A DNA stretch of 41,317 nucleotides from Escherichia phage vB_EcoS_HSE2. Below the pieces are notes generated by a model. The model did no database searches. It was not told the origin of the DNA and saw nothing but the letters and a program-made list of their open reading frames with translations. The stretch lies in sequence record MG252615.1; one strand, 5' to 3'. The translations under genes were made by a program, and so were the position numbers. Numbering within the stretch: position 1 is the first letter of the stretch; every line of letters begins with the position of its first letter. Shown here piece after piece: positions 72 through 38,412 of the stretch.

Positions 72-1093
72 CGCCAAACACACAGGCCGTACAGTCTCTG
101 ATTCGCCTTGCCCGCGACCCGGATGTCGGAGCATTAAATCTGACAACAGCAAATATGGATAAGCTGTTGGCTGTGCAAAACGAAATTGAGAGTTATTTTG
201 GTAGCGCATCCGCCGGCGAGTTTTGCTATACGTTTGATGACTACAAAACTACGATGCAGGACATAGTAACTACGATAGCGGAAGCAATTTTCTGCACCCC
301 ATATCGGAGAGGCGCTGACATTCTTCTTGACTTTGAACGCCCGCGGATTGGTCCCGAGATGGTATTTACCCACCGCAGCAAAACTACCGCTACGGAGAAG
401 TGGACACGCACGTTTAACGACGCTCAGGTATACGATAGTCTCAAGTTCTCTTACATCGACCCAGATACTAACGTCAAAGAGACAATCAGCATCCCAGCCG
501 AAGGTGGGGTTAATACTGAAACGTACGATTCTAAAGGTATCCGTAACTATCGACAGGCATACTGGGCTGCATACCGCCGCTATCAGAAAAACCTGTTGAA
601 GAAGGTGACAGTATCATTCACGGCGACAGAAGAAGGGATTTTTGCAATGCCTGGACGAGCAGTAAGTGTGGTTAAAGGGTCGCGTATGGCCCCACAGGAT
701 GGTTATGTTATCGCCGTTAATGGCCTTACTCTGACGTTATCACAACCGGTTAAGTTCACACCAGGAGACGACCATTCACTCATCCTTAAGAAGCGTGATG
801 GCGGAGTTCAGAGTGTTGCAGTTGTGCCGGGAAGTCACGACCGTGAAGTGATTATGTTATCTGCGCCGCAAGAGGCAATTTACACAGGGAATAGCGCGCT
901 AAAAACTGAGTTTTCATTCGGCAACGAAGCAAGGCATAATGCTCAGATGATTCTTGTTTCTACAGTTGACCCCGGGGATGACAGAACAGTTAAGATTACC
1001 GGTATTAACTACGAAGCGGATTTCTACAAATACGACGGCGTCGCGCCTTTCGGCAGCGGTTTCTCCGACGGATTCAGCAATGGTTTTAGTTAA
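2..1093 (+). CDS. Tail tip / host-specificity protein (lambda J-like), C-terminal part; same ORF as 39775..41317 across the junction
   Basis: Frame open from window start to stop at 1091-1093 and in phase with the ORF that runs off the window end; position after the K-like tail assembly gene. Confidence 0.6.
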   Translation, partial: QLRMVVTEMAYKYLGNGVFDSVRTPNTQAVQSLIRLARDPDVGALNLTTANMDKLLAVQNEIESYFGSASAGEFCYTFDDYKTTMQDIVTTIAEAIFCTPYRRGADILLDFERPRIGPEMVFTHRSKTTATEKWTRTFNDAQVYDSLKFSYIDPDTNVKETISIPAEGGVNTETYDSKGIRNYRQAYWAAYRRYQKNLLKKVTVSFTATEEGIFAMPGRAVSVVKGSRMAPQDGYVIAVNGLTLTLSQPVKFTPGDDHSLILKKRDGGVQSVAVVPGSHDREVIMLSAPQEAIYTGNSALKTEFSFGNEARHNAQMILVSTVDPGDDRTVKITGINYEADFYKYDGVAPFGSGFSDGFSNGFS

Positions 1094-31453: not shown

Positions 31454-31866
31454 TGGGCTACTTTGAGGACTTAACAAAAGCGTTCGATGTGCCGCTGGTA
31501 GCATTCGGGGCTGCAAACAGCATCAAGGTTGCGCTTGAAAACATCGACGCGCCGACGTCAACCGATACGCCGTATCTGGCAAGTTACATGTTGCTGGCAG
31601 ATACCGAGCAGGCGGATTTGTTCTTCACGGAACAACGCTCAGGTGTTTATCAGGTCGACATTAACTACGCATCGGTGAAAGGTAGCGCGCCAATCAATAA
31701 AATGGCAGACTTACTTAACACGGCGTTTAAAGCAGGTAAGTCATTTTCGCGTAACGACATCTGCGCCGAGGTTCAATCGGTTAGCCTGGGGCCGCTGATT
31801 GTAGAAAACGGATGGGCCAAACGACCATTGTCAATTAACTTTATTGCATTCACCAAGAGGCTGTGA
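31450..31866 (+). CDS. Putative tail terminator protein
   Basis: Gene order immediately upstream of major tail protein. Confidence 0.4.
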   Translation: MMGYFEDLTKAFDVPLVAFGAANSIKVALENIDAPTSTDTPYLASYMLLADTEQADLFFTEQRSGVYQVDINYASVKGSAPINKMADLLNTAFKAGKSFSRNDICAEVQSVSLGPLIVENGWAKRPLSINFIAFTKRL

Positions 31867-33035
31867 ATATGGCTACAACTCCTTTTAAGGGCGCGAATAC
31901 CGCGCAATTCTATGTGGCGGAAGTGACCCCCGGCGTAACACCAAGTAACCCGGTATGGTCGCCGCTGCGTAACACAGGCGGCGTTCCTGCCATCACCCGT
32001 GACACGCTGACCTCCAACGAACTGGACGGCAGCCGCGAAACTACATCCATCCGCACCGGTAACAAGCAGGTTAGCGGTGAATATGCTATTGAGCTTAGCT
32101 CGAAAAGCCAGGATGACTGGCTAGCCGGGGCTTTAGGCTCTACGTGGCAGGCTGGCGTATCTCTGTCAGGGCTATCGATTACCGTCGCACCGGCTGGCAA
32201 GACGTTCACACGCGCTACCGGCAGTTTTATCACTGACGGAGTTGGGGTAGGCGACCTGATTGCGTTTACCGACTTAACAGGCGATAACGCAAAACCATTT
32301 ATTGTTACTGCAGTAACGGATACGGTTGTTACTGGTGCAGGCATCCAACACACCCTGACCACCGGGACAAAAACTAGTAAGGCTAAAACTGGCGACACGT
32401 TGGAAACCGGTAACGCGTGTAAGACGTTCTCTATCCTTACCTGGTACAAAGGCCAGTGCGGCGGTACTGATGCGTACACGTTAACCAAAGGCGTGGAAGT
32501 TTCTGGTTTTACCATCGAACAGGCTGTTAACGCGATGGTAACTGGCAGCTTCCCATTCATCGGTCGCAGTCAGGAGATTCTCACCACGCCGCCGACCGGT
32601 TCCAACTTCTCATCTGTTACTTTTGGTGATGAGCCGTTCTCTTCGGTTGACGTTTCCGTATTCGATGGTTCTACACCGTTGCGTTGCGACAGCCTAACCA
32701 TCACCAACGACAACAGCGCGTCCGCACAGTTCGAACTCGGCAACACTAACGTTGCGTTTGTGGAGCGTAGCCGCGCAGCTAACACCTTTTCCATCTCCGG
32801 TAAGTTGTACGACATGGCGATGATTCAGAAGTTTATCAACGAGCAACAGGTTGAGATTAACTCTATTCTGGCGGGGGTAAACGGGGCTATGTCTTTCAGC
32901 CTGAAACGCGCAGAGCTTACGGCGGTTACGCCAGAAATATCTGGCCCGGAATCAATTACCCAAAGTATAGAAGGGCAGTCCACAGGCAACCAGTATCAGT
33001 CGTCTATCGTAATTCAACGTATTAGTTACGTATAA
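31863..33035 (+). CDS. Major tail (tube) protein
   Basis: 390-aa Thr/Gly/Ser-rich ORF followed by strong terminator; upstream of chaperone and tape-measure genes. Confidence 0.6.
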   Translation: MNMATTPFKGANTAQFYVAEVTPGVTPSNPVWSPLRNTGGVPAITRDTLTSNELDGSRETTSIRTGNKQVSGEYAIELSSKSQDDWLAGALGSTWQAGVSLSGLSITVAPAGKTFTRATGSFITDGVGVGDLIAFTDLTGDNAKPFIVTAVTDTVVTGAGIQHTLTTGTKTSKAKTGDTLETGNACKTFSILTWYKGQCGGTDAYTLTKGVEVSGFTIEQAVNAMVTGSFPFIGRSQEILTTPPTGSNFSSVTFGDEPFSSVDVSVFDGSTPLRCDSLTITNDNSASAQFELGNTNVAFVERSRAANTFSISGKLYDMAMIQKFINEQQVEINSILAGVNGAMSFSLKRAELTAVTPEISGPESITQSIEGQSTGNQYQSSIVIQRISYV

Positions 33036-33306: not shown

Positions 33307-33777
33307 CTACTCATGGTTTTCATGGAAACCGTATTTACTCTCGGCGGCTTTACGCGCAGCAACCGCTACATCAAAATCGTCGTAAAGCCCTAAATGCACT
33401 TGTTTGTAGTTAACTTTTATAAACGCGCGCCACTTACCCGCGGCTTTGTGGAAACTTACGCCTGTAGCCCCGGATTTATTTATCTTTCGCATAGTTTTAT
33501 TTTTACTGTTCCCTGTATTGTCGGTGGCGCGTAGATTTTCTATTCTATTGTCTAGCCTGTTATGGTTTATGTGGTCTATTTGAGTTTTCCTGTCTAAGTT
33601 GCATTTATTATAAAGACACCATGCTATGCGGTGGACATACACTGTTTTACCACCCATACCGCAGCACAGATAACCTCTTACACCAACCGTACCAACCTCA
33701 GCACCAGTAGATAACCTGGTAACCCTCCCAGTCTCAGGGCAGTATTTAAATTGTTTTGAAACATCAAGATATTTCAT
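33307..33777 (-). CDS. HNH homing endonuclease with AP2 domain (paralog of 9184..9675)
   Basis: HNH motif IDHINHNRLDNRIEN; AP2-like GATGVSFHKAAGKWRAFIKV...AARKAAESKYGFHENHE. Confidence 0.75.
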   Translation of the reverse strand: MKYLDVSKQFKYCPETGRVTRLSTGAEVGTVGVRGYLCCGMGGKTVYVHRIAWCLYNKCNLDRKTQIDHINHNRLDNRIENLRATDNTGNSKNKTMRKINKSGATGVSFHKAAGKWRAFIKVNYKQVHLGLYDDFDVAVAARKAAESKYGFHENHE

Positions 33778-34904
33778 CTTAGCATCTCCGGTGAGATTGA
33801 AAGCCTACCTACTTCCCCGAACTCTGAACTATAGGTTATGACATTAGCGGACCTCTTAGACATCCACCCGCCGCGAGAAGCATATGCATCTTTCGCCGCG
33901 AGAGTGCGATGCTGCTCCACTACCATATTCCTACTTTCTACGATCTTTTGGTGGTGGAGATGCCCAACATGTGCATAACTGTACTCGCTTTCGCCGAATG
34001 CTTTTCTGAACTTAGCTATCATAATGGGTTCGACCACCTCAAACCGGCATTTATGCCCGTGTGTAAAGAACAGAGTCGTTTTGCCGTGTTGCACCATCTT
34101 GTAAACATCCGGCGACGTATCGACGAACACACGCGGCTCATTGTCATATAGCGTGCTGAACATCTCAGCTAACCAAATCATTCCGCTTTCGTCGTGGTTA
34201 CCTTGAACGATTAAAAGTTTTACTGTGTGATGCTTAACCAGCGCCATATCGACAACACGACGCACCATACGAATCATGTAGCGAACTAGTTTCTGATAGC
34301 GAGTATCGGCGTCTAACACATGACGCGACTCAGGGGTAACGGCATCAAGACTATCGAAGTGCGCGAAGTCTCCTAGCAGATTAATAACTCCTGTTCCCGC
34401 GTCCGGTGCTTTCTGAAACGCCGCGTCGAACCATCGAGAGAACAGGTCTTCTGCAATCTTCATGTCCCAGTCGTCGCCGCTCTCGTCTGCCCATGCAAGC
34501 ATACCGAGATGGAAATCAGACACAGTGTAAAGATTGAGAAGTTTATCGTCGCGTTTGGCGCGAGTCGCTTTAACAGGCGCAACAGGTGTAATCTCTGACT
34601 TCATGCCTTCAATTACGGCTTTCATCAACTCGACCTGACGTTCAGCATCGGTGTCAGTCTTAACCCATTGCAACTTAGTGTTGCCGAACTCGTCCACCAG
34701 GGACGACGTGCCTTTAATCTTGTAGCCGTCCGGCACAAGGTGACTAACGTCGCGCCCGTGGCCTACACCTTTCTTAGCCAGCTTCGCTTTACGGATACGA
34801 ATAACGCGGTCTGAGATGCCGTATTTACGGGCGATATCAATAATCTTCATCCCGGCGTTCAATTCTTCCTGTAACTGTTCGTCGGTTATTTTCTTCTGGG
34901 CCAT
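33774..34904 (-). CDS. Calcineurin-like metallophosphoesterase with N-terminal HTH domain
   Basis: Phosphoesterase motifs DFHLG, GDFAHFD, GNHDE, THGH, GHLHH in canonical order; N-terminal IIDIARKYGISDRVIRIRKAKL helix-turn-helix; GAGGAAG Shine-Dalgarno. Confidence 0.65.
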   Translation of the reverse strand: MAQKKITDEQLQEELNAGMKIIDIARKYGISDRVIRIRKAKLAKKGVGHGRDVSHLVPDGYKIKGTSSLVDEFGNTKLQWVKTDTDAERQVELMKAVIEGMKSEITPVAPVKATRAKRDDKLLNLYTVSDFHLGMLAWADESGDDWDMKIAEDLFSRWFDAAFQKAPDAGTGVINLLGDFAHFDSLDAVTPESRHVLDADTRYQKLVRYMIRMVRRVVDMALVKHHTVKLLIVQGNHDESGMIWLAEMFSTLYDNEPRVFVDTSPDVYKMVQHGKTTLFFTHGHKCRFEVVEPIMIAKFRKAFGESEYSYAHVGHLHHQKIVESRNMVVEQHRTLAAKDAYASRGGWMSKRSANVITYSSEFGEVGRLSISPEMLR

Positions 34905-34942
34905 GCTTACTTCCTCGTGTTTAGGATTTGTCTTATAGTAGC

Positions 34943-35149
34943 CTACTTCTCTTTCACGTTCGAGTTGCAAGCCCAGATTAAAATAAATACCCACGGCAGC
35001 AGAACCCAGCCAAGAAACAGGTTAGCCATGAATATAGCTAACTTCGCTTTATGGTTACGGAAGTACGCAACCAGGAAAGGTGCGAAATAAGCGAGCAGTG
35101 CAAACAGAATTAAGGAAACTGGTAAACTGGACATTTTAAACCCCTTCAT
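34943..35149 (-). CDS. Superinfection-immunity-like small membrane protein (Imm family-like)
   Basis: Two TM segments with R.H..KLAIF..NLFLGW...PW...LIWA, matching my recollection of the Imm-superinfection family consensus. Confidence 0.55.
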   Translation of the reverse strand: MKGFKMSSLPVSLILFALLAYFAPFLVAYFRNHKAKLAIFMANLFLGWVLLPWVFILIWACNSNVKEK

Positions 35150-35193: not shown

Positions 35194-35301
35194 GTAATGT
35201 GATAGAATAATTTTGCGCCTAGTGTCGCACATGAAAAGCGGGTGGTTCCCGTCTGGCGCATTTACCATTAACCTGTAACCTCTTAACCAAAGGATTAAAG
35301 A

Positions 35302-35718
35302 ATGAAACTTTCTGATTTTTATTACGAAGCTGAGGCAGAAAAAGGCGCCCGTATGCCGATCCCACTGAAAGACGGCACCGATTCAGGGGAGTGGCTGAAC
35401 GTTGTTTCACCGGAGGCAGACGTTGCGGTTAAAGCCATGCGTGCATTTACCCTGGCGTACCGCGCGTCGTTAGGTAAACTGAAGCCGCTTCGTGATAAAT
35501 GCGAGGAACTGAAAGATTTCTCGGAATATAACATTAAGATGGAAGACGCCGCGACGGACCTTAACCGCCAGTTAGCACTTGAACTGGTTAACGGTTGGAG
35601 TCTCGACGATGAATTTAATAAAGAGAACCTGAATACTCTTTTTTCACAATATAAACGCCTCGCTGAACACGTTGTTGTTTTCCACAACGAACAGCTTCAC
35701 CAATTGCAGGAAAAGTAG
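35302..35718 (+). CDS. Tail assembly chaperone (G-like)
   Basis: Acidic 138-aa protein upstream of tape measure with overlapping downstream ORF in -1 frame. Confidence 0.5.
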   Translation: MKLSDFYYEAEAEKGARMPIPLKDGTDSGEWLNVVSPEADVAVKAMRAFTLAYRASLGKLKPLRDKCEELKDFSEYNIKMEDAATDLNRQLALELVNGWSLDDEFNKENLNTLFSQYKRLAEHVVVFHNEQLHQLQEK

Positions 35719-36083
35719 ACGCGTTGCTCCAGTTTGCCCGTTGGAACTTCATAGCCCGCCACAAACGGCGGGAGTTTGACAGTATTGCCGACGGGCATAA
35801 AGCCGCGCTAATTGCTATGGGGGTTATGCAAGATGCGCCGGAAGCAACGCAGGACACCGGGCCGGAATGCCCCCCTGAACTATTAACCACCTTCGAGAAG
35901 TACCGGGAAATCAAATTTACCCGCCGAGTGGATGACGATGGCATCAAGATGTACCCGCGCGAACAGTTAAGATGGTCGGATTTAGTGGCATACAGCACCG
36001 TTTCAGGCCAGAATATAGGCATGTTTGAATCTGACATCATCATGAGCTTAGACGCTATTTTCGAGGGTAGAAACGATGGCTGA
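35667..36083 (+). CDS. T-like extension reached by probable -1 frameshift from the chaperone (GT product)
   Basis: -1 frame open from 35667, overlapping the last 17 codons of the G-like ORF and ending at the tape-measure start. Confidence 0.4.
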   Translation, partial: TRCCFPQRTASPIAGKVDALLQFARWNFIARHKRREFDSIADGHKAALIAMGVMQDAPEATQDTGPECPPELLTTFEKYREIKFTRRVDDDGIKMYPREQLRWSDLVAYSTVSGQNIGMFESDIIMSLDAIFEGRNDG

Positions 36084-38412
36084 TGTAGCTAGTTTAGTTG
36101 TAAAAGTATCAGAGCAAGGCGCGAAAGCTACATCAGACCGTCTTGATAACCTTTCCAAGTCTGCAAAGGTAGCCGGAGCTGCGGTAGCGGGCCTCGCTTC
36201 CATCGTCGCCGCTACCGCTTACAAGGCCGCACAGGAACTGGTAGAATCCCAACGGCAACTGGACAAGATGTCCGCCAGCCTGAAAACACTAACCGGAAGC
36301 ACGCAGGGTGCAAGACAGGCGTTAAGCATCCTGCAAGACTTCGCGCGCGACACTCCGTATGGCCTTGAACAGGCGGTAGAGGGATTCCGTAAACTTGTGG
36401 CGCTTGGTCTTACACCGTCAGAAGAAGCGTTGCGTTCCTACGGAAACACCGCCGCTGCTATGGGTAAAGACCTGAATCAGATGATTGAGGCGGTTGCAGA
36501 CGCTAGTACTTTTGAATTTGAGCGCCTTAAAGAATTTGGTATCAAGGCCAAACAGAACAAAAACGATGTTGAATTTACATTCCAGGGTACTACTACGGTA
36601 GTTAAGAAGAGCGCTGCCGACATCGAGCAATACCTGCTCAACATCGGTAACGTAAACTTCGCGGGGGCTATGGCGGACCAGGCCAACACACTTAACGGGG
36701 CCATCGCCAGTGCCAGCGACTCATGGTCGCAGTTAAAAATGACACTGGCTACCAGTCTTGATGTTGGTGCGCTCGCCGAACCTATCCGATACATCGATGA
36801 TTTAATCCAGGAACTTAACGCACAGGTTGCATCCGGTGAACTTGCCGCAGAGATGCGTATGTGGGGTGACATCGCGTCGGAAGTAGGAAGCGCAATAGAG
36901 ATGTCATTCGACGCGGCATTTGGTTTCGTGGGTGATGCGATAAACGGGCTAAATGAGCTTTGGGATTTTAGCAGCAAAAGTATCACGGATAGCGGCGAAC
37001 AAACGGCGACAACCATAGCGGAATCAGCCGCCGATGCGCTCGATTTCATCGCGGAAGAATTTACCGCGATGGAGCGCTTCTTTGAGGATATGGTTAAAGG
37101 GGCGCAGGATGCCGGTCGGCTGGTTAAGGCCGCCTTCACACCAGGGGAATCCGTAGACGTAGCAAAAAATATTAACTTCCAGCTGGGGATGGCACTGGAT
37201 ACTCAGCGCGACGTTGCGGACCTGACACGTAAAAGTTTCCGCGAACAGGTGGAGGCTCAGCAAAATATCGTCGCGCTTAAACGCGCAGCGTATGACATCG
37301 ACAAAGAAGCCGCTAAGGAAGAAGGGCTTAGTAAATTTAAGGTAACTGGTACCGGCGGCGGATCTGAAGATGATAGCGCGGGTGCAAAAGCCGCTAAGAA
37401 AGCAGCGGATGCGTTCGAGCGCCAGAAGAAAGCCGCGGAGGATTTCTACTATCAGTCAATTCATCTCAATGATGACGTATTCCAGAAAATAGAAGCCAAC
37501 CAGGAACAGCAGTTAACCAAGCTACAGGAGTTTTACGGCAATCAGCTTCTTAGCGACCAGCAGTACGAAAACGCCAAGACGCAGATTATGCTGGAAGCGG
37601 ACACTGCTCGCCAGGAGGAACTCGCTAAACGAGAGAAAGAACGGCAGGAAAAGAACCAGAAAGGTGACGACTTCATGGCTCAGATTATGGGCCAGAACGC
37701 TACTGAGCTTGAGCTTCTCGACATCCAGGAACAGCAGAAACTGGCTGTAGCAGATAAATACCGCGAACAGGGTCTGATTAACGAGGAACAGTATCAGGCG
37801 GCGCTTAACGCCATCAACGAGCAGTACGCCACGAAACGTGCGGATGCTTTAGGTAGTTCTTTCGGTGACATGGCGGCTAACGCTAAAACAGCATTTGGCG
37901 AGGCGTCCACCGCGTATAAAGCGTTCGCTATTGCTCAGGCCACAATCGCCACGTACACATCGGCTATTGAGGCGTATAAGTCAACGGCTGCTATCCCTGT
38001 TGTCGGCCCATTCCTGGCTCCGGTTGCCGCGGCTACCGCCGTTGCTGCGGGGCTGGCTAATATCGCCAAAATCCGCTCGGCGCGTGAACAGGGCGGTCAG
38101 TTATCCGCGGGTCAGATGTCAACTATAGCGGAACGTGGTAAGCCAGAAGTTATCATGCCCGCGGGTGCATCGCGTGTGCGCACCGCGCAGCAGATGAAAG
38201 AAATCATGGGGCAAAACGGCGGCCAGTCCGGCGGTGATAACGTGACAATCGTCAACAACACCACCGGACGCGTTGATTCTGCCGTAACAGAACGTGACGA
38301 CGAAGGGCGGTTACGTATTATAATCAGTGAAACAGTAGCGTCGCAGTTACAGGATAACAACTCACCGATTTCTAAAGCTCGCCGCTCTACTCGCGGTCAG
38401 CCGGGGTACTAA
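36076..38412 (+). CDS. Tail tape measure protein
   Basis: 778 aa, Ala/Gln/Glu-rich helical repeats; canonical position. Confidence 0.85.
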   Translation: MADVASLVVKVSEQGAKATSDRLDNLSKSAKVAGAAVAGLASIVAATAYKAAQELVESQRQLDKMSASLKTLTGSTQGARQALSILQDFARDTPYGLEQAVEGFRKLVALGLTPSEEALRSYGNTAAAMGKDLNQMIEAVADASTFEFERLKEFGIKAKQNKNDVEFTFQGTTTVVKKSAADIEQYLLNIGNVNFAGAMADQANTLNGAIASASDSWSQLKMTLATSLDVGALAEPIRYIDDLIQELNAQVASGELAAEMRMWGDIASEVGSAIEMSFDAAFGFVGDAINGLNELWDFSSKSITDSGEQTATTIAESAADALDFIAEEFTAMERFFEDMVKGAQDAGRLVKAAFTPGESVDVAKNINFQLGMALDTQRDVADLTRKSFREQVEAQQNIVALKRAAYDIDKEAAKEEGLSKFKVTGTGGGSEDDSAGAKAAKKAADAFERQKKAAEDFYYQSIHLNDDVFQKIEANQEQQLTKLQEFYGNQLLSDQQYENAKTQIMLEADTARQEELAKREKERQEKNQKGDDFMAQIMGQNATELELLDIQEQQKLAVADKYREQGLINEEQYQAALNAINEQYATKRADALGSSFGDMAANAKTAFGEASTAYKAFAIAQATIATYTSAIEAYKSTAAIPVVGPFLAPVAAATAVAAGLANIAKIRSAREQGGQLSAGQMSTIAERGKPEVIMPAGASRVRTAQQMKEIMGQNGGQSGGDNVTIVNNTTGRVDSAVTERDDEGRLRIIISETVASQLQDNNSPISKARRSTRGQPGY

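What the first reader, a model, noticed from the sequence alone, without database searches (positions are those of the whole stretch)
35667..35718. Probable programmed -1 frameshift joining tail chaperone G-like and T-like frames; no canonical slippery heptamer
The -1 frame is open from 35667 and overlaps the last 17 codons of the G-like gene before continuing to the tape-measure start. The only near-slippery site is G-GAA-AAG (35709..35715) directly before the G stop. It would need a tolerated mismatch in the P site.
Basis: partly seen in the sequence, partly recalled or inferred. Interest (0 to 1): 0.4.

Follow-up and report, generated by a model that had tools for sequence, protein, structure and literature searches.

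The report
Tail chaperone frameshift at last codon
This phage almost certainly makes a longer tail-assembly chaperone by slipping back one base on the final lysine codon of the short form, next to its stop codon; the trick is well known, this slip site is unusual, and close relatives are already annotated this way.

Summary
The G-like ORF (35302..35718) ends CAG GAA AAG TAG. The -1 frame is open from 35667 to 36083 and overlaps the tape-measure start at 36076.

- In 69 related loci (17 clusters at 80% T identity or less, down to 37%), T-frame homology always begins at the GTA/ATA codon overlapping G's stop.
- G always ends NNA_AAG_TAR. In one distant clade it ends A_AAA_AAA_TAR.
- 11 of 17 clusters have no ATG/GTG/TTG in the first ~30 conserved T codons, so T cannot initiate independently.
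- The codon 5' of AAG varies (GAA, GCA, TCA, GTA, GGA) but always ends in A.

The selected element is therefore the A_AAG tetramer next to a stop codon, not a two-tRNA heptamer. The most likely mechanism is a single tRNA-Lys re-pairing from AAG to AAA. Whether the stop codon stimulates the slip is not tested.

No conserved downstream RNA structure or upstream Shine-Dalgarno-like element was found.

The exact ...LQEK|VDALL... fusion is already in RefSeq for 96.7%-identical phages. Two genome announcements disagree about the same junction sequence.

Verdict: a real, ordinary kind of recoding with a non-canonical but known type of site. Interest is low to moderate.

The parts
35302..35718 (+). 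G-like tail assembly chaperone ORF. 138 aa, ATG start, AAGGA ribosome-binding site 7 nt upstream, stop TAG at 35716-18.
   Evidence: ORF. Pfam Phage_TAC_4, E=3.3e-8, above cut-off; phrog_15027 and phrog_313, tail assembly chaperone.
35712..35715 (+). A_AAG slippery tetramer: the last base of GAA plus the terminal Lys codon AAG of G. This is the proposed -1 shift site. The heptamer context G_GAA_AAG is 35709..35715.
   Evidence: Invariant as A_AAG (64 loci) or A_AAA (5 loci) in 69 loci and 17 clusters. The base 5' of AAG is always A, although the codon encodes E, A, S, V, G or K. A_AAG is the most shift-prone tetramer in E. coli (PMC4066793; PMC5009743).
35716..35718 (+). Zero-frame stop codon TAG directly abutting the slip codon. 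Candidate kinetic stimulator (a slow A-site event).
   Evidence: A stop follows AAG/AAA immediately in 69 of 69 loci: TAG 63, TAA 6, TGA 0. In lambda, five sense codons separate G_GGA_AAG from the stop. The stimulatory role is inferred, not shown.
35715..36083 (+). T-like segment in the -1 frame. 122 codons beginning GTA (Val), stop TGA at 36081-83. It is translated only as the C-terminal part of GT. The predicted CDS is join(35302..35715, 35715..36083), 260 aa.
   Evidence: Pfam Phage_TAC_18, E=1.6e-18; homology starts at residue 1 (V.AL...W) in all relatives. 11 of 17 clusters have no start codon in the first ~30 codons; the equivalent 260-aa fusion of a 96.7%-identical phage is RefSeq YP_010748927.1.
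35724..35726 (+). TTG (Leu4 of the T segment), used by some annotators as an independent start for a 119-aa 'hypothetical protein'. Probably not a start.
   Evidence: It is CTG in most other clusters. The nearest AGGA ends 12 nt upstream.
35735..35797 (+). Predicted stem-loop 19 nt downstream of the slip codon. Stable in this phage, but not supported as a frameshift stimulator.
   Evidence: -34.2 kcal/mol, z = -3.9; no covariation, and pairs are lost in distant relatives; family consensus structure of only -1.3 kcal/mol.
36076..38412 (+). Tape measure protein gene. Its ATG overlaps the T stop (ATGGCTGA).
   Evidence: phrog_1538, E=2.4e-205; the overlap is conserved in all relatives.

Best explanation
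The window is a Kagunavirus-like (Guernseyvirinae) E. coli siphophage. Its tail assembly chaperone is made in two forms from one mRNA.

Most ribosomes read G (35302..35715) and terminate at TAG 35716-18, giving a 138-aa protein.

A minority slip back one nucleotide on the last sense codon. The single E. coli tRNA-Lys (anticodon mnm5s2UUU) detaches from AAG (35713-15) and re-pairs with AAA (35712-14). The next codon read is then GTA (35715-17), and translation continues in the -1 frame to 36083. The product is a 260-aa GT fusion, ...HQLQEK-VDALLQFARW....

The selected cis element is the tetranucleotide A_AAG immediately followed by a UAG/UAA stop. The 5' codon only has to end in A.

I favour slippage of peptidyl-tRNA-Lys in the P site while the slowly decoded stop codon occupies the A site (a -1 'shifty stop'). 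A-site slippage of Lys-tRNA on an NNA_AAG hexanucleotide is an equally product-compatible variant.

By analogy with lambda G/GT, the G part binds the tape-measure protein and the T part recruits the tail-tube protein.

Shown here: the anatomy, the family-wide conservation, the lack of start codons, and nucleotide-level selection on A_AAG.
Inferred: that slippage happens, its efficiency, which ribosomal site slips, the role of the stop codon, and the protein functions.
For: 1. Both frames are bona fide tail-chaperone coding sequence, and a PHROG profile spans the fusion.

2. In 27 + 68 IMG/VR loci and 4 GenBank loci, T-frame homology begins exactly at the codon overlapping G's stop. G identity goes down to 43% and T identity down to 37%. 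G ends NNA_AAG_TAR everywhere, and A_AAA_AAA_TAR in the most distant clade.

3. In some relatives the -1 frame opens only 12-16 nt before G's stop, which confines the shift to the last few codons.

4. 11 of 17 clusters have no ATG/GTG/TTG in the first ~30 T codons, although these residues are conserved: V1, A3, L4, W10, F21-D-S-I24 are invariant.

5. The base before AAG lies in the untranslated part of the -1 frame and is a synonymous third position in G. It is A in 69 of 69 loci, across codons for six amino acids. This is selection on the nucleotide, not the protein.

6. One relative differs by a single base and has lambda's canonical G_GGA_AAG at the same place (L087). Another clade has A_AAA_AAA. 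A more distant Phage_TAC_4-like gene ends A_AAA_AAC_TGA.

7. A_AAG is the best tetramer in E. coli, which has a single tRNA-Lys. NNA_AAG sites are used by B. subtilis cdd and IS1222.

8. The window encodes no tRNA that could alter this.

9. Independent annotators reached the same junction. QNO11663.1 / YP_010748927.1 is an exact match to the ...LQEK|VDALL... fusion, and the alternative ...LQGK... junction is absent from the collection. Shelanagig and Shemara carry a CDS noted as 'frameshift product'.
Against:
- A_AAG alone gave only about 0.15% frameshifting in E. coli reporters without a stimulator (PMC4066793).
- I found no conserved stimulatory RNA structure and no conserved upstream Shine-Dalgarno-like element (by eye on the contexts). 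Efficiency therefore has to come from the stop codon or local context, which is untested.
- The stop's adjacency could be inherited rather than functional. The loci are phylogenetically related, so the counts overstate independence.
- In this phage's own lineage a TTG lies 6 nt after the stop, so some independent T synthesis cannot be excluded.
Confidence: 0.8

Rival explanations
1. This is the first reader's version: tandem two-tRNA -1 slippage on the near-canonical heptamer G_GAA_AAG. tRNA-Glu in the P site re-pairs from GAA to GGA (two Watson-Crick pairs plus a central G-U), while tRNA-Lys in the A site re-pairs from AAG to AAA. The product is identical to that of the best explanation.
For: - G_GAA_AAG is the commonest form: 9 of 17 clusters, 51 of 69 loci.
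- It is one base away from lambda's G_GGA_AAG, which occurs in relative L087.
- PRFect lists a 'twofour' motif class among -1 sites of actinophages. That it corresponds to XXYYYYZ is my inference, not shown by the passages read.
Against: - Seven of 17 clusters have N_GCA_AAG, G_TCA_AAG or G_GTA_AAG (one further cluster has the canonical A_AAA_AAA). In these the P-site tRNA cannot re-pair in the -1 frame, yet the junction is otherwise identical.
- P-site re-pairing is therefore dispensable for the family. At most it boosts efficiency in this lineage.
Confidence: 0.3
2. There is no frameshift. T is made as a separate 119-aa protein by initiation or termination-reinitiation at TTG 35724, 6 nt after G's stop, as several GenBank records annotate it.
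For: - A TTG exists at 35724, with an AGGA 12 nt upstream.
- XY1, EC3-1 and others annotate a 119-aa CDS there. That exact protein is in the databases as 'hypothetical protein'.
- Shashou's authors saw no canonical slippery sequence.
Against: - The TTG is CTG in most other clusters.
- 11 of 17 clusters have no start codon for ~30 codons, although residues upstream of any start (V1, A3, L4, W10...) are invariant.
- Homology begins three codons before the TTG, exactly at the stop overlap.
- The A before AAG is under nucleotide-level selection that this model does not explain.
Confidence: 0.07
3. The frame change is made at the RNA level, by transcriptional slippage of RNA polymerase on the A run, rather than by the ribosome.
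For: The most distant clade has a run of seven A's at the junction (GCAAAAAAATAR). That is borderline for polymerase slippage.
Against: - The window and most relatives have only four or three A's (GGAAAAG, GCAAAG). From general knowledge this is far below the roughly 7-9 needed for efficient slippage.
- The conserved feature is in-frame A_AAG plus a stop, which is a ribosomal signature.
Confidence: 0.02

Closest known systems
Phage lambda G/GT tail assembly chaperone -1 programmed frameshift (Levin, Hendrix & Casjens 1993; Xu, Hendrix & Duda 2004, 2013, 2014; cited in PMC5009743)
   Same: - Two overlapping ORFs lie immediately upstream of the tape-measure gene.
- The downstream ORF is in the -1 frame.
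- The shift is near the 3' end of G on a ...A_AAG Lys codon.
- There is no evident RNA stimulator.
- T's stop overlaps the tape-measure start.
- The predicted products are a short G and a G-T fusion.
   Different: - Lambda's site is the canonical G_GGA_AAG, with five sense codons before the TGA stop. Here it is G_GAA_AAG, or N_GCA_AAG and similar in relatives, with zero codons before a TAG/TAA stop.
- The proteins belong to other Pfam families (Phage_TAC_4 and Phage_TAC_18).
- Three reverse-strand genes separate the tail-tube gene from G.
- The fusion protein has not been demonstrated here.
NNA_AAG hexanucleotide / A_AAG tetranucleotide -1 frameshift sites (Licznar et al. 2003; B. subtilis cdd A_CGA_AAG; IS1222 G_CGA_AAG; IS3 A_AAG; as reviewed in PMC5009743 and PMC4066793)
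   Same: - One tRNA-Lys shifts from AAG to AAA.
- The P-site codon does not need to re-pair.
- The host has a single tRNA-Lys(UUU).
- Low-level shifting is suited to making a minor product.
   Different: - The IS3 example relies on a downstream pseudoknot; from memory, IS1222 and cdd also use an upstream SD-like element or downstream structure. No conserved one was found here.
- Here the motif always abuts the zero-frame stop. From memory, the cdd site lies about 9 nt before its stop.
'Shifty stop' P-site slippage (Weiss et al. 1987; prfB CUU_UGA +1; antizyme)
   Same: A slip-prone codon is immediately followed by a stop codon. Slow termination would give peptidyl-tRNA time to re-pair.
   Different: - The known natural cases are +1 and use a nearby SD-like or other stimulator.
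- Here the shift is -1.
- Dependence on release factor is untested.
- The adjacent AGGA (35708-11) is not conserved, and from general knowledge its spacing is wrong for -1 stimulation.

Membership tests
Lambda-type G/GT tail assembly chaperone frameshift | Two overlapping ORFs located between the major tail (tube) gene and the tape-measure gene | tested here: met
   G is 35302..35718, the T frame runs to 36083, and the tape-measure gene starts at 36076. Caveat: the tube gene (31863..33035, Phage_tube_2) is separated from G by three reverse-strand genes.
Lambda-type G/GT tail assembly chaperone frameshift | The downstream ORF is in the -1 frame and has no conserved initiation signal of its own | tested here: met
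   It is in the -1 frame. 11 of 17 clusters have no start codon in the first ~30 conserved codons, and the window's TTG is CTG elsewhere.
Lambda-type G/GT tail assembly chaperone frameshift | Canonical X_XXY_YYZ slippery heptamer in the overlap | tested here: not met
   The window has G_GAA_AAG, and the only other motif is T_TTC. Canonical heptamers occur at the same position only in L087 (G_GGA_AAG) and L092-96 (A_AAA_AAA).
Lambda-type G/GT tail assembly chaperone frameshift | G and T parts are homologous to tail assembly chaperone families | tested here: met
   Pfam Phage_TAC_4 (34.2 bits vs cut-off 21.1) and Phage_TAC_18 (67.1 vs 27). phrog_15027 spans both. A fold-level test failed: the AlphaFold model of G had pLDDT 51, and there was no PDB sequence match.
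Lambda-type G/GT tail assembly chaperone frameshift | G and GT are both made, in a fixed ratio of about 30:1; both are needed for tail assembly and absent from virions | not testable with these tools
   Needs protein-level and genetic experiments.
NNA_AAG / A_AAG single-tRNA -1 frameshift sites | In-frame A_AAG with an open -1 frame downstream | tested here: met
   A_AAG is at 35712..35715 and the -1 frame is open to 36083. It is conserved in 64 of 69 loci, with A_AAA in 5.
NNA_AAG / A_AAG single-tRNA -1 frameshift sites | The host decodes AAA and AAG with a single tRNA-Lys (mnm5s2UUU), and the phage supplies no tRNA-Lys(CUU) | tested here: met
   Nearest relatives infect E. coli. E. coli has one tRNA-Lys (PMC5009743). 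There are no tRNA genes in the window. The host is inferred from relatives.
NNA_AAG / A_AAG single-tRNA -1 frameshift sites | A flanking stimulator (upstream SD-like element or downstream hairpin/pseudoknot), as in the IS3 example and, from memory, in IS1222 and cdd | tested here: not met
   The window's hairpin at 35735..35797 starts 19 nt downstream and shows no covariation or conservation. No Rfam frameshift element was found. No conserved SD-like element is seen 10-14 nt upstream (by eye on the contexts).
Shifty-stop (P-site slippage at a stop codon) | A stop codon immediately 3' of the slip codon | tested here: met
   AAG_TAG in the window. 69 of 69 relatives have TAG or TAA directly after AAG/AAA.
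Shifty-stop (P-site slippage at a stop codon) | Frameshift efficiency depends on the stop codon and on release-factor activity | not testable with these tools
   Needs reporter assays with stop-to-sense changes and RF1 titration.

The most novel reading that the evidence does not exclude
The zero-frame stop codon is itself the conserved stimulator. Across Guernseyvirinae-like phages, GT would be made by a -1 'shifty stop': peptidyl-tRNA-Lys slips from AAG to AAA while an RF1-read UAG/UAA (never UGA in 69 loci) waits in the A site. The GT:G ratio would then be set by the competition between RF1 termination and slippage. That would be a -1 counterpart of the prfB-type +1 shift, needing no heptamer and no RNA structure. 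The conserved GCG-YTG bases 6-11 nt downstream might contribute as sequence context.
Probability: 0.3. Interest if true: 0.5.

Novelty: new member of a known kind. Interest (0 to 1): 0.3.

Why it matters
Practical value: this settles an annotation inconsistency.
- The same CAG GAA AAG TAG junction is called a frameshift in some GenBank/RefSeq records and papers (fFiEco03, Shelanagig, Shemara).
- In others (Shashou, XY1, EC3-1, Tsm2) it is called 'no canonical slippery sequence / hypothetical protein', or given a truncated ORF.
- T homologues were found in 493 phage records. The slip-site rule NNA_AAG_TAR, seen in every sampled locus except one distant clade (A_AAA_AAA_TAR), could correct such records; automated predictors may under-call this motif if they weight canonical heptamers heavily.

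Conceptual value: this is a clean natural family in which the 5' codon varies freely while A_AAG plus a stop is fixed. That makes it a good system for testing whether a stop codon can stimulate -1 single-tRNA slippage.

It does not change the understanding of tail assembly.

Tried and rejected
- **Downstream RNA stimulator.** The window folds into a stable stem-loop at 35735-35797. Pair counts over 11 diverged sequences show no covariation and loss of pairing. RNAalifold on 17 cluster representatives gives only -1.3 kcal/mol. Rejected as a conserved element.
- **Rfam scan of 35200-36300.** No frameshift element was found. The only hit is an int-alpA-like match upstream of G.
- **Upstream SD-like stimulator.** The AGGA at 35708-11 overlaps the site and is absent from the GCA/TCA/GTA lineages (by eye on the contexts). 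Rejected.
- **Alternative slip site T_TTC at 35679-82.** It is not conserved and is blocked by a -1 stop in close relatives.
- **Alternative junction ...LQGK...** This sequence is not in the protein collection.
- **The search for homologous proteins with the fused protein.** It gave only 5 hits and nothing useful for the junction.
- **AlphaFold model of G from a 4-sequence alignment.** pLDDT was 51 and pTM 0.34. That is too poor for a fold search, so none was run.
- **PDB sequence searches with G and the T profile.** No significant match.
- **Scan of bacterial genomes with the T profile.** It found one locus only, a Jerseyvirus-like contig. This gave no prophage or host-range information.
- **Licznar et al. 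2003.** The paper could not be retrieved. It is cited through reviews.

Full report
**What the window is**

The region 35250-36150 is 99% identical to Escherichia phage BUCT823. It is 94-98% identical to many Kagunavirus (Guernseyvirinae) E. coli siphophages and 80-90% identical to Salmonella Jerseyvirus phages. The local gene order is as follows:

| Feature | Coordinates | Strand |
|---|---|---|
| Tail tube gene (Phage_tube_2) | 31863..33035 | + |
| HNH/AP2 endonuclease | 33307..33777 | - |
| Metallophosphoesterase | 33774..34994 | - |
| Superinfection-immunity-like protein | 34943..35149 | - |
| G-like chaperone | 35302..35718 | + |
| T-like frame | to 36083 | + |
| Tape measure gene | 36076..38412 | + |

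**Checking the observation**

- G ends ...CAA TTG CAG GAA AAG TAG, with the stop at 35716-18.
- The -1 frame has a TGA at 35664-66 and is then open from 35667 to the TGA at 36081-83. That gives a 52-nt overlap with G.
- The -1 frame ends inside the tape-measure start (ATGGCTGA).

Both frames are real coding sequence.
- G matches Pfam Phage_TAC_4 and the -1 frame matches Phage_TAC_18, both above the curated cut-offs.
- The 259-position PHROG profile phrog_15027 ('tail assembly chaperone') matches G over positions 1-138 and the -1 frame over positions 135-259. The profile was therefore built from fused proteins.

The site is unlikely to be chance. In-frame A_AAG is rare in this genome (36 in 14,120 codon pairs; 0.04 expected in the overlap). 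G is the only one of 66 ORFs of 100 aa or more that ends with A_AAG plus a stop.

There is also an in-frame T_TTC at 35679-82.

**Comparative evidence for a frameshift and for its position**

I collected loci from three sources:
- 27 IMG/VR loci found with G.
- 68 IMG/VR loci found with a T-segment profile.
- Several GenBank loci.

They span G identity down to 43% and T identity down to 37%. They fall into 17 clusters at 80% T identity.

In every locus the T homology starts at query residue 1. That residue is the GTA (or ATA) codon whose last two bases are the first two bases of G's stop codon.

In every locus G ends NNA_AAG_TAR. The exception is the most distant clade, where it ends A_AAA_AAA_TAR.

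The -1 frame opens at very different distances upstream, from 12 to 208 nt. In some relatives it opens only 12-16 nt before G's stop. The shift must therefore occur in the last few codons.

In close relatives a -1 TGA lies downstream of the T_TTC motif, which excludes that motif as the site.

Eleven of 17 clusters have no ATG, GTG or TTG in the first ~30 codons of the T segment, yet those codons encode invariant residues (V1, A3, L4, W10, F21-D-S-I24). The window's TTG at 35724 is Leu4 and is CTG in most clusters. T therefore cannot in general be initiated independently. It has to be reached from G.

**What the selected element is**

Among 17 cluster representatives, the positions AAA[G/A]TA around the junction are invariant. 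Neighbouring third-codon positions show only 30-55% identity.

The A preceding AAG is a synonymous third position in G, and it lies in the part of the -1 frame that is not translated. It is nevertheless A in 69 of 69 loci. The codon containing it varies:

| Codon 5' of AAG/AAA | Loci |
|---|---|
| GAA | 51 |
| GCA | 10 |
| AAA | 5 |
| TCA | 1 |
| GTA | 1 |
| GGA | 1 |

This is nucleotide-level selection for A_AAG. With GCA, TCA or GTA the P-site tRNA has no -1 re-pairing potential, so a two-tRNA heptamer is not the conserved requirement.

The window's G_GAA_AAG would allow tRNA-Glu two Watson-Crick pairs plus a G-U on GGA. That may add efficiency in this lineage. One relative (L087) has lambda's canonical G_GGA_AAG at the same place by a single base change. 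A more distant Phage_TAC_4-like gene (L030) ends A_AAA_AAC_TGA, again with the slip site abutting the stop.

**Mechanism**

The literature background is as follows.
- A_AAG is the most shift-prone tetramer in E. coli. It gives up to 5.6% frameshifting with a pseudoknot, but only about 0.15% with no stimulator (PMC4066793).
- E. coli has a single tRNA-Lys that reads both AAA and AAG (PMC5009743).
- NNA_AAG sites are used naturally in B. subtilis cdd and in IS1222.
- Single-tRNA slippage is described both as P-site slippage next to a slowly decoded codon and as A-site slippage on A_AAG (PMC10861913).

In this family the codon after AAG is a stop in 69 of 69 loci: TAG 63, TAA 6, never TGA. In lambda, five sense codons separate G_GGA_AAG from the stop.

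I found no other stimulator.
- The window's stable stem-loop (35735-97; -34.2 kcal/mol, z = -3.9) starts 19 nt downstream of the slip codon. It is neither conserved nor covarying.
- There is no Rfam frameshift element.
- There is no conserved SD-like element upstream (by eye on the contexts).
- The phage encodes no tRNA.

The best-supported model is therefore a -1 slip of tRNA-Lys from AAG to AAA at the last sense codon. It probably happens while the stop codon waits in the A site. GTA is read next, giving ...LQEK-VDALL... and a 260-aa GT protein.

Which ribosomal site slips, how efficient the slip is, and whether the stop stimulates it are all inferences. The adjacency of the stop could simply be inherited.

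**Comparison with what is known, and novelty**

Functionally this is the lambda G/GT arrangement. It meets that family's positional, frame and homology criteria, but not the canonical-heptamer criterion. The site belongs to the known NNA_AAG class, but without that class's usual RNA or SD stimulators.

The recoding event itself is already in public annotation.
- The exact 260-aa fusion with the EK|V junction is QNO11663.1 / YP_010748927.1, from fFiEco03 and fPoEco01, which are 96.7% identical here.
- Shelanagig (Jerseyvirus) and Shemara (Cornellvirus) carry a CDS noted as 'tail assembly chaperone frameshift product'.

Other records treat it differently.
- Some annotate a separate 119-aa protein.
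- One annotates a truncated ORF starting from the internal Met (Tsm2).

The published statements also conflict. The Shelanagig announcement says the slippery sequence is present (PMC6763656). The Shashou announcement says there is 'no canonical slippery sequence' (PMC6776780). Shelanagig has the same CAG GAA AAG TAG junction as the window, and Shashou is 96.7% identical over this region, though I did not read its junction directly.

I found no experimental demonstration and no description of the family-wide A_AAG-plus-stop rule, but my literature search was limited.

**Verdict**

This is a new member of a known kind, already partly annotated. Interest is 0.3.

The most novel reading still open is that the stop codon is the conserved stimulator of a -1 'shifty stop'. 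I give that a probability of about 0.3.

Noticed in passing
window 35212..35276 (+), intergenic region upstream of the G start at 35302: A structured RNA resembling Rfam RF02996 (int-alpA RNA) matches the full model at 28.3 bits, below the gathering score of 35.8 (E = 2e-4 to 2e-3). The same element sits at the same place upstream of G in diverged relatives: L009 scores 36.6 bits, above threshold, and L025, L026, L028 and L029 score 27-34 bits. RNAalifold finds a three-stem fold in which 6 of 15 pairs show compensatory changes. Its function is unknown. It may be a leader or regulatory element of the chaperone/tape-measure operon in lytic Guernseyvirinae.
   Followed up: partly
window 35721..35726 (GCG TTG; T-frame codons 3-4): The synonymous third positions of these two codons are 94-100% conserved across 17 clusters (GCG CTG/TTG). 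Neighbouring third positions are only 30-55% conserved. This may be a sequence-level 3' context 6-11 nt after the slip codon. No conserved pairing partner was found.
   Followed up: partly
window 33307..35149 (- strand): Three reverse-strand genes are inserted between the tail tube gene and the chaperone genes: an HNH/AP2 endonuclease, a metallophosphoesterase (phrog_704, 'DNA repair exonuclease') and a small superinfection-immunity-like protein. This breaks the usual tube-G-T-TMP contiguity. A simple sigma-70 scan found no + strand promoter between 35150 and 35301.
   Followed up: no
window 36076..36083: The T stop and the tape-measure start overlap as ATGGCTGA. This is conserved in all relatives examined, which suggests translational coupling of the tape-measure gene to ribosomes finishing GT or to upstream translation.
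   Followed up: no
L100 (NZ_JACVEL010000023.1, Taishania pollutisoli assembly, 13-kb contig): This is the only bacterial-genome hit to the T profile. It is 86% identical to the window's T segment and has the same junction sequence as Salmonella phage Shelanagig, a Jerseyvirus. It sits in a Bacteroidota assembly, so it is probably phage contamination rather than a prophage.
   Followed up: no
L103 (Serratia phage Tsm2, MW082583.1), locus 703..966: The T segment is annotated as a truncated ORF starting at the conserved internal Met (codon ~35). G ends TCG GCA AAG TAG, and the conserved T codons upstream are left unannotated. This is an example of mis-annotation caused by the non-canonical site.
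   Followed up: no
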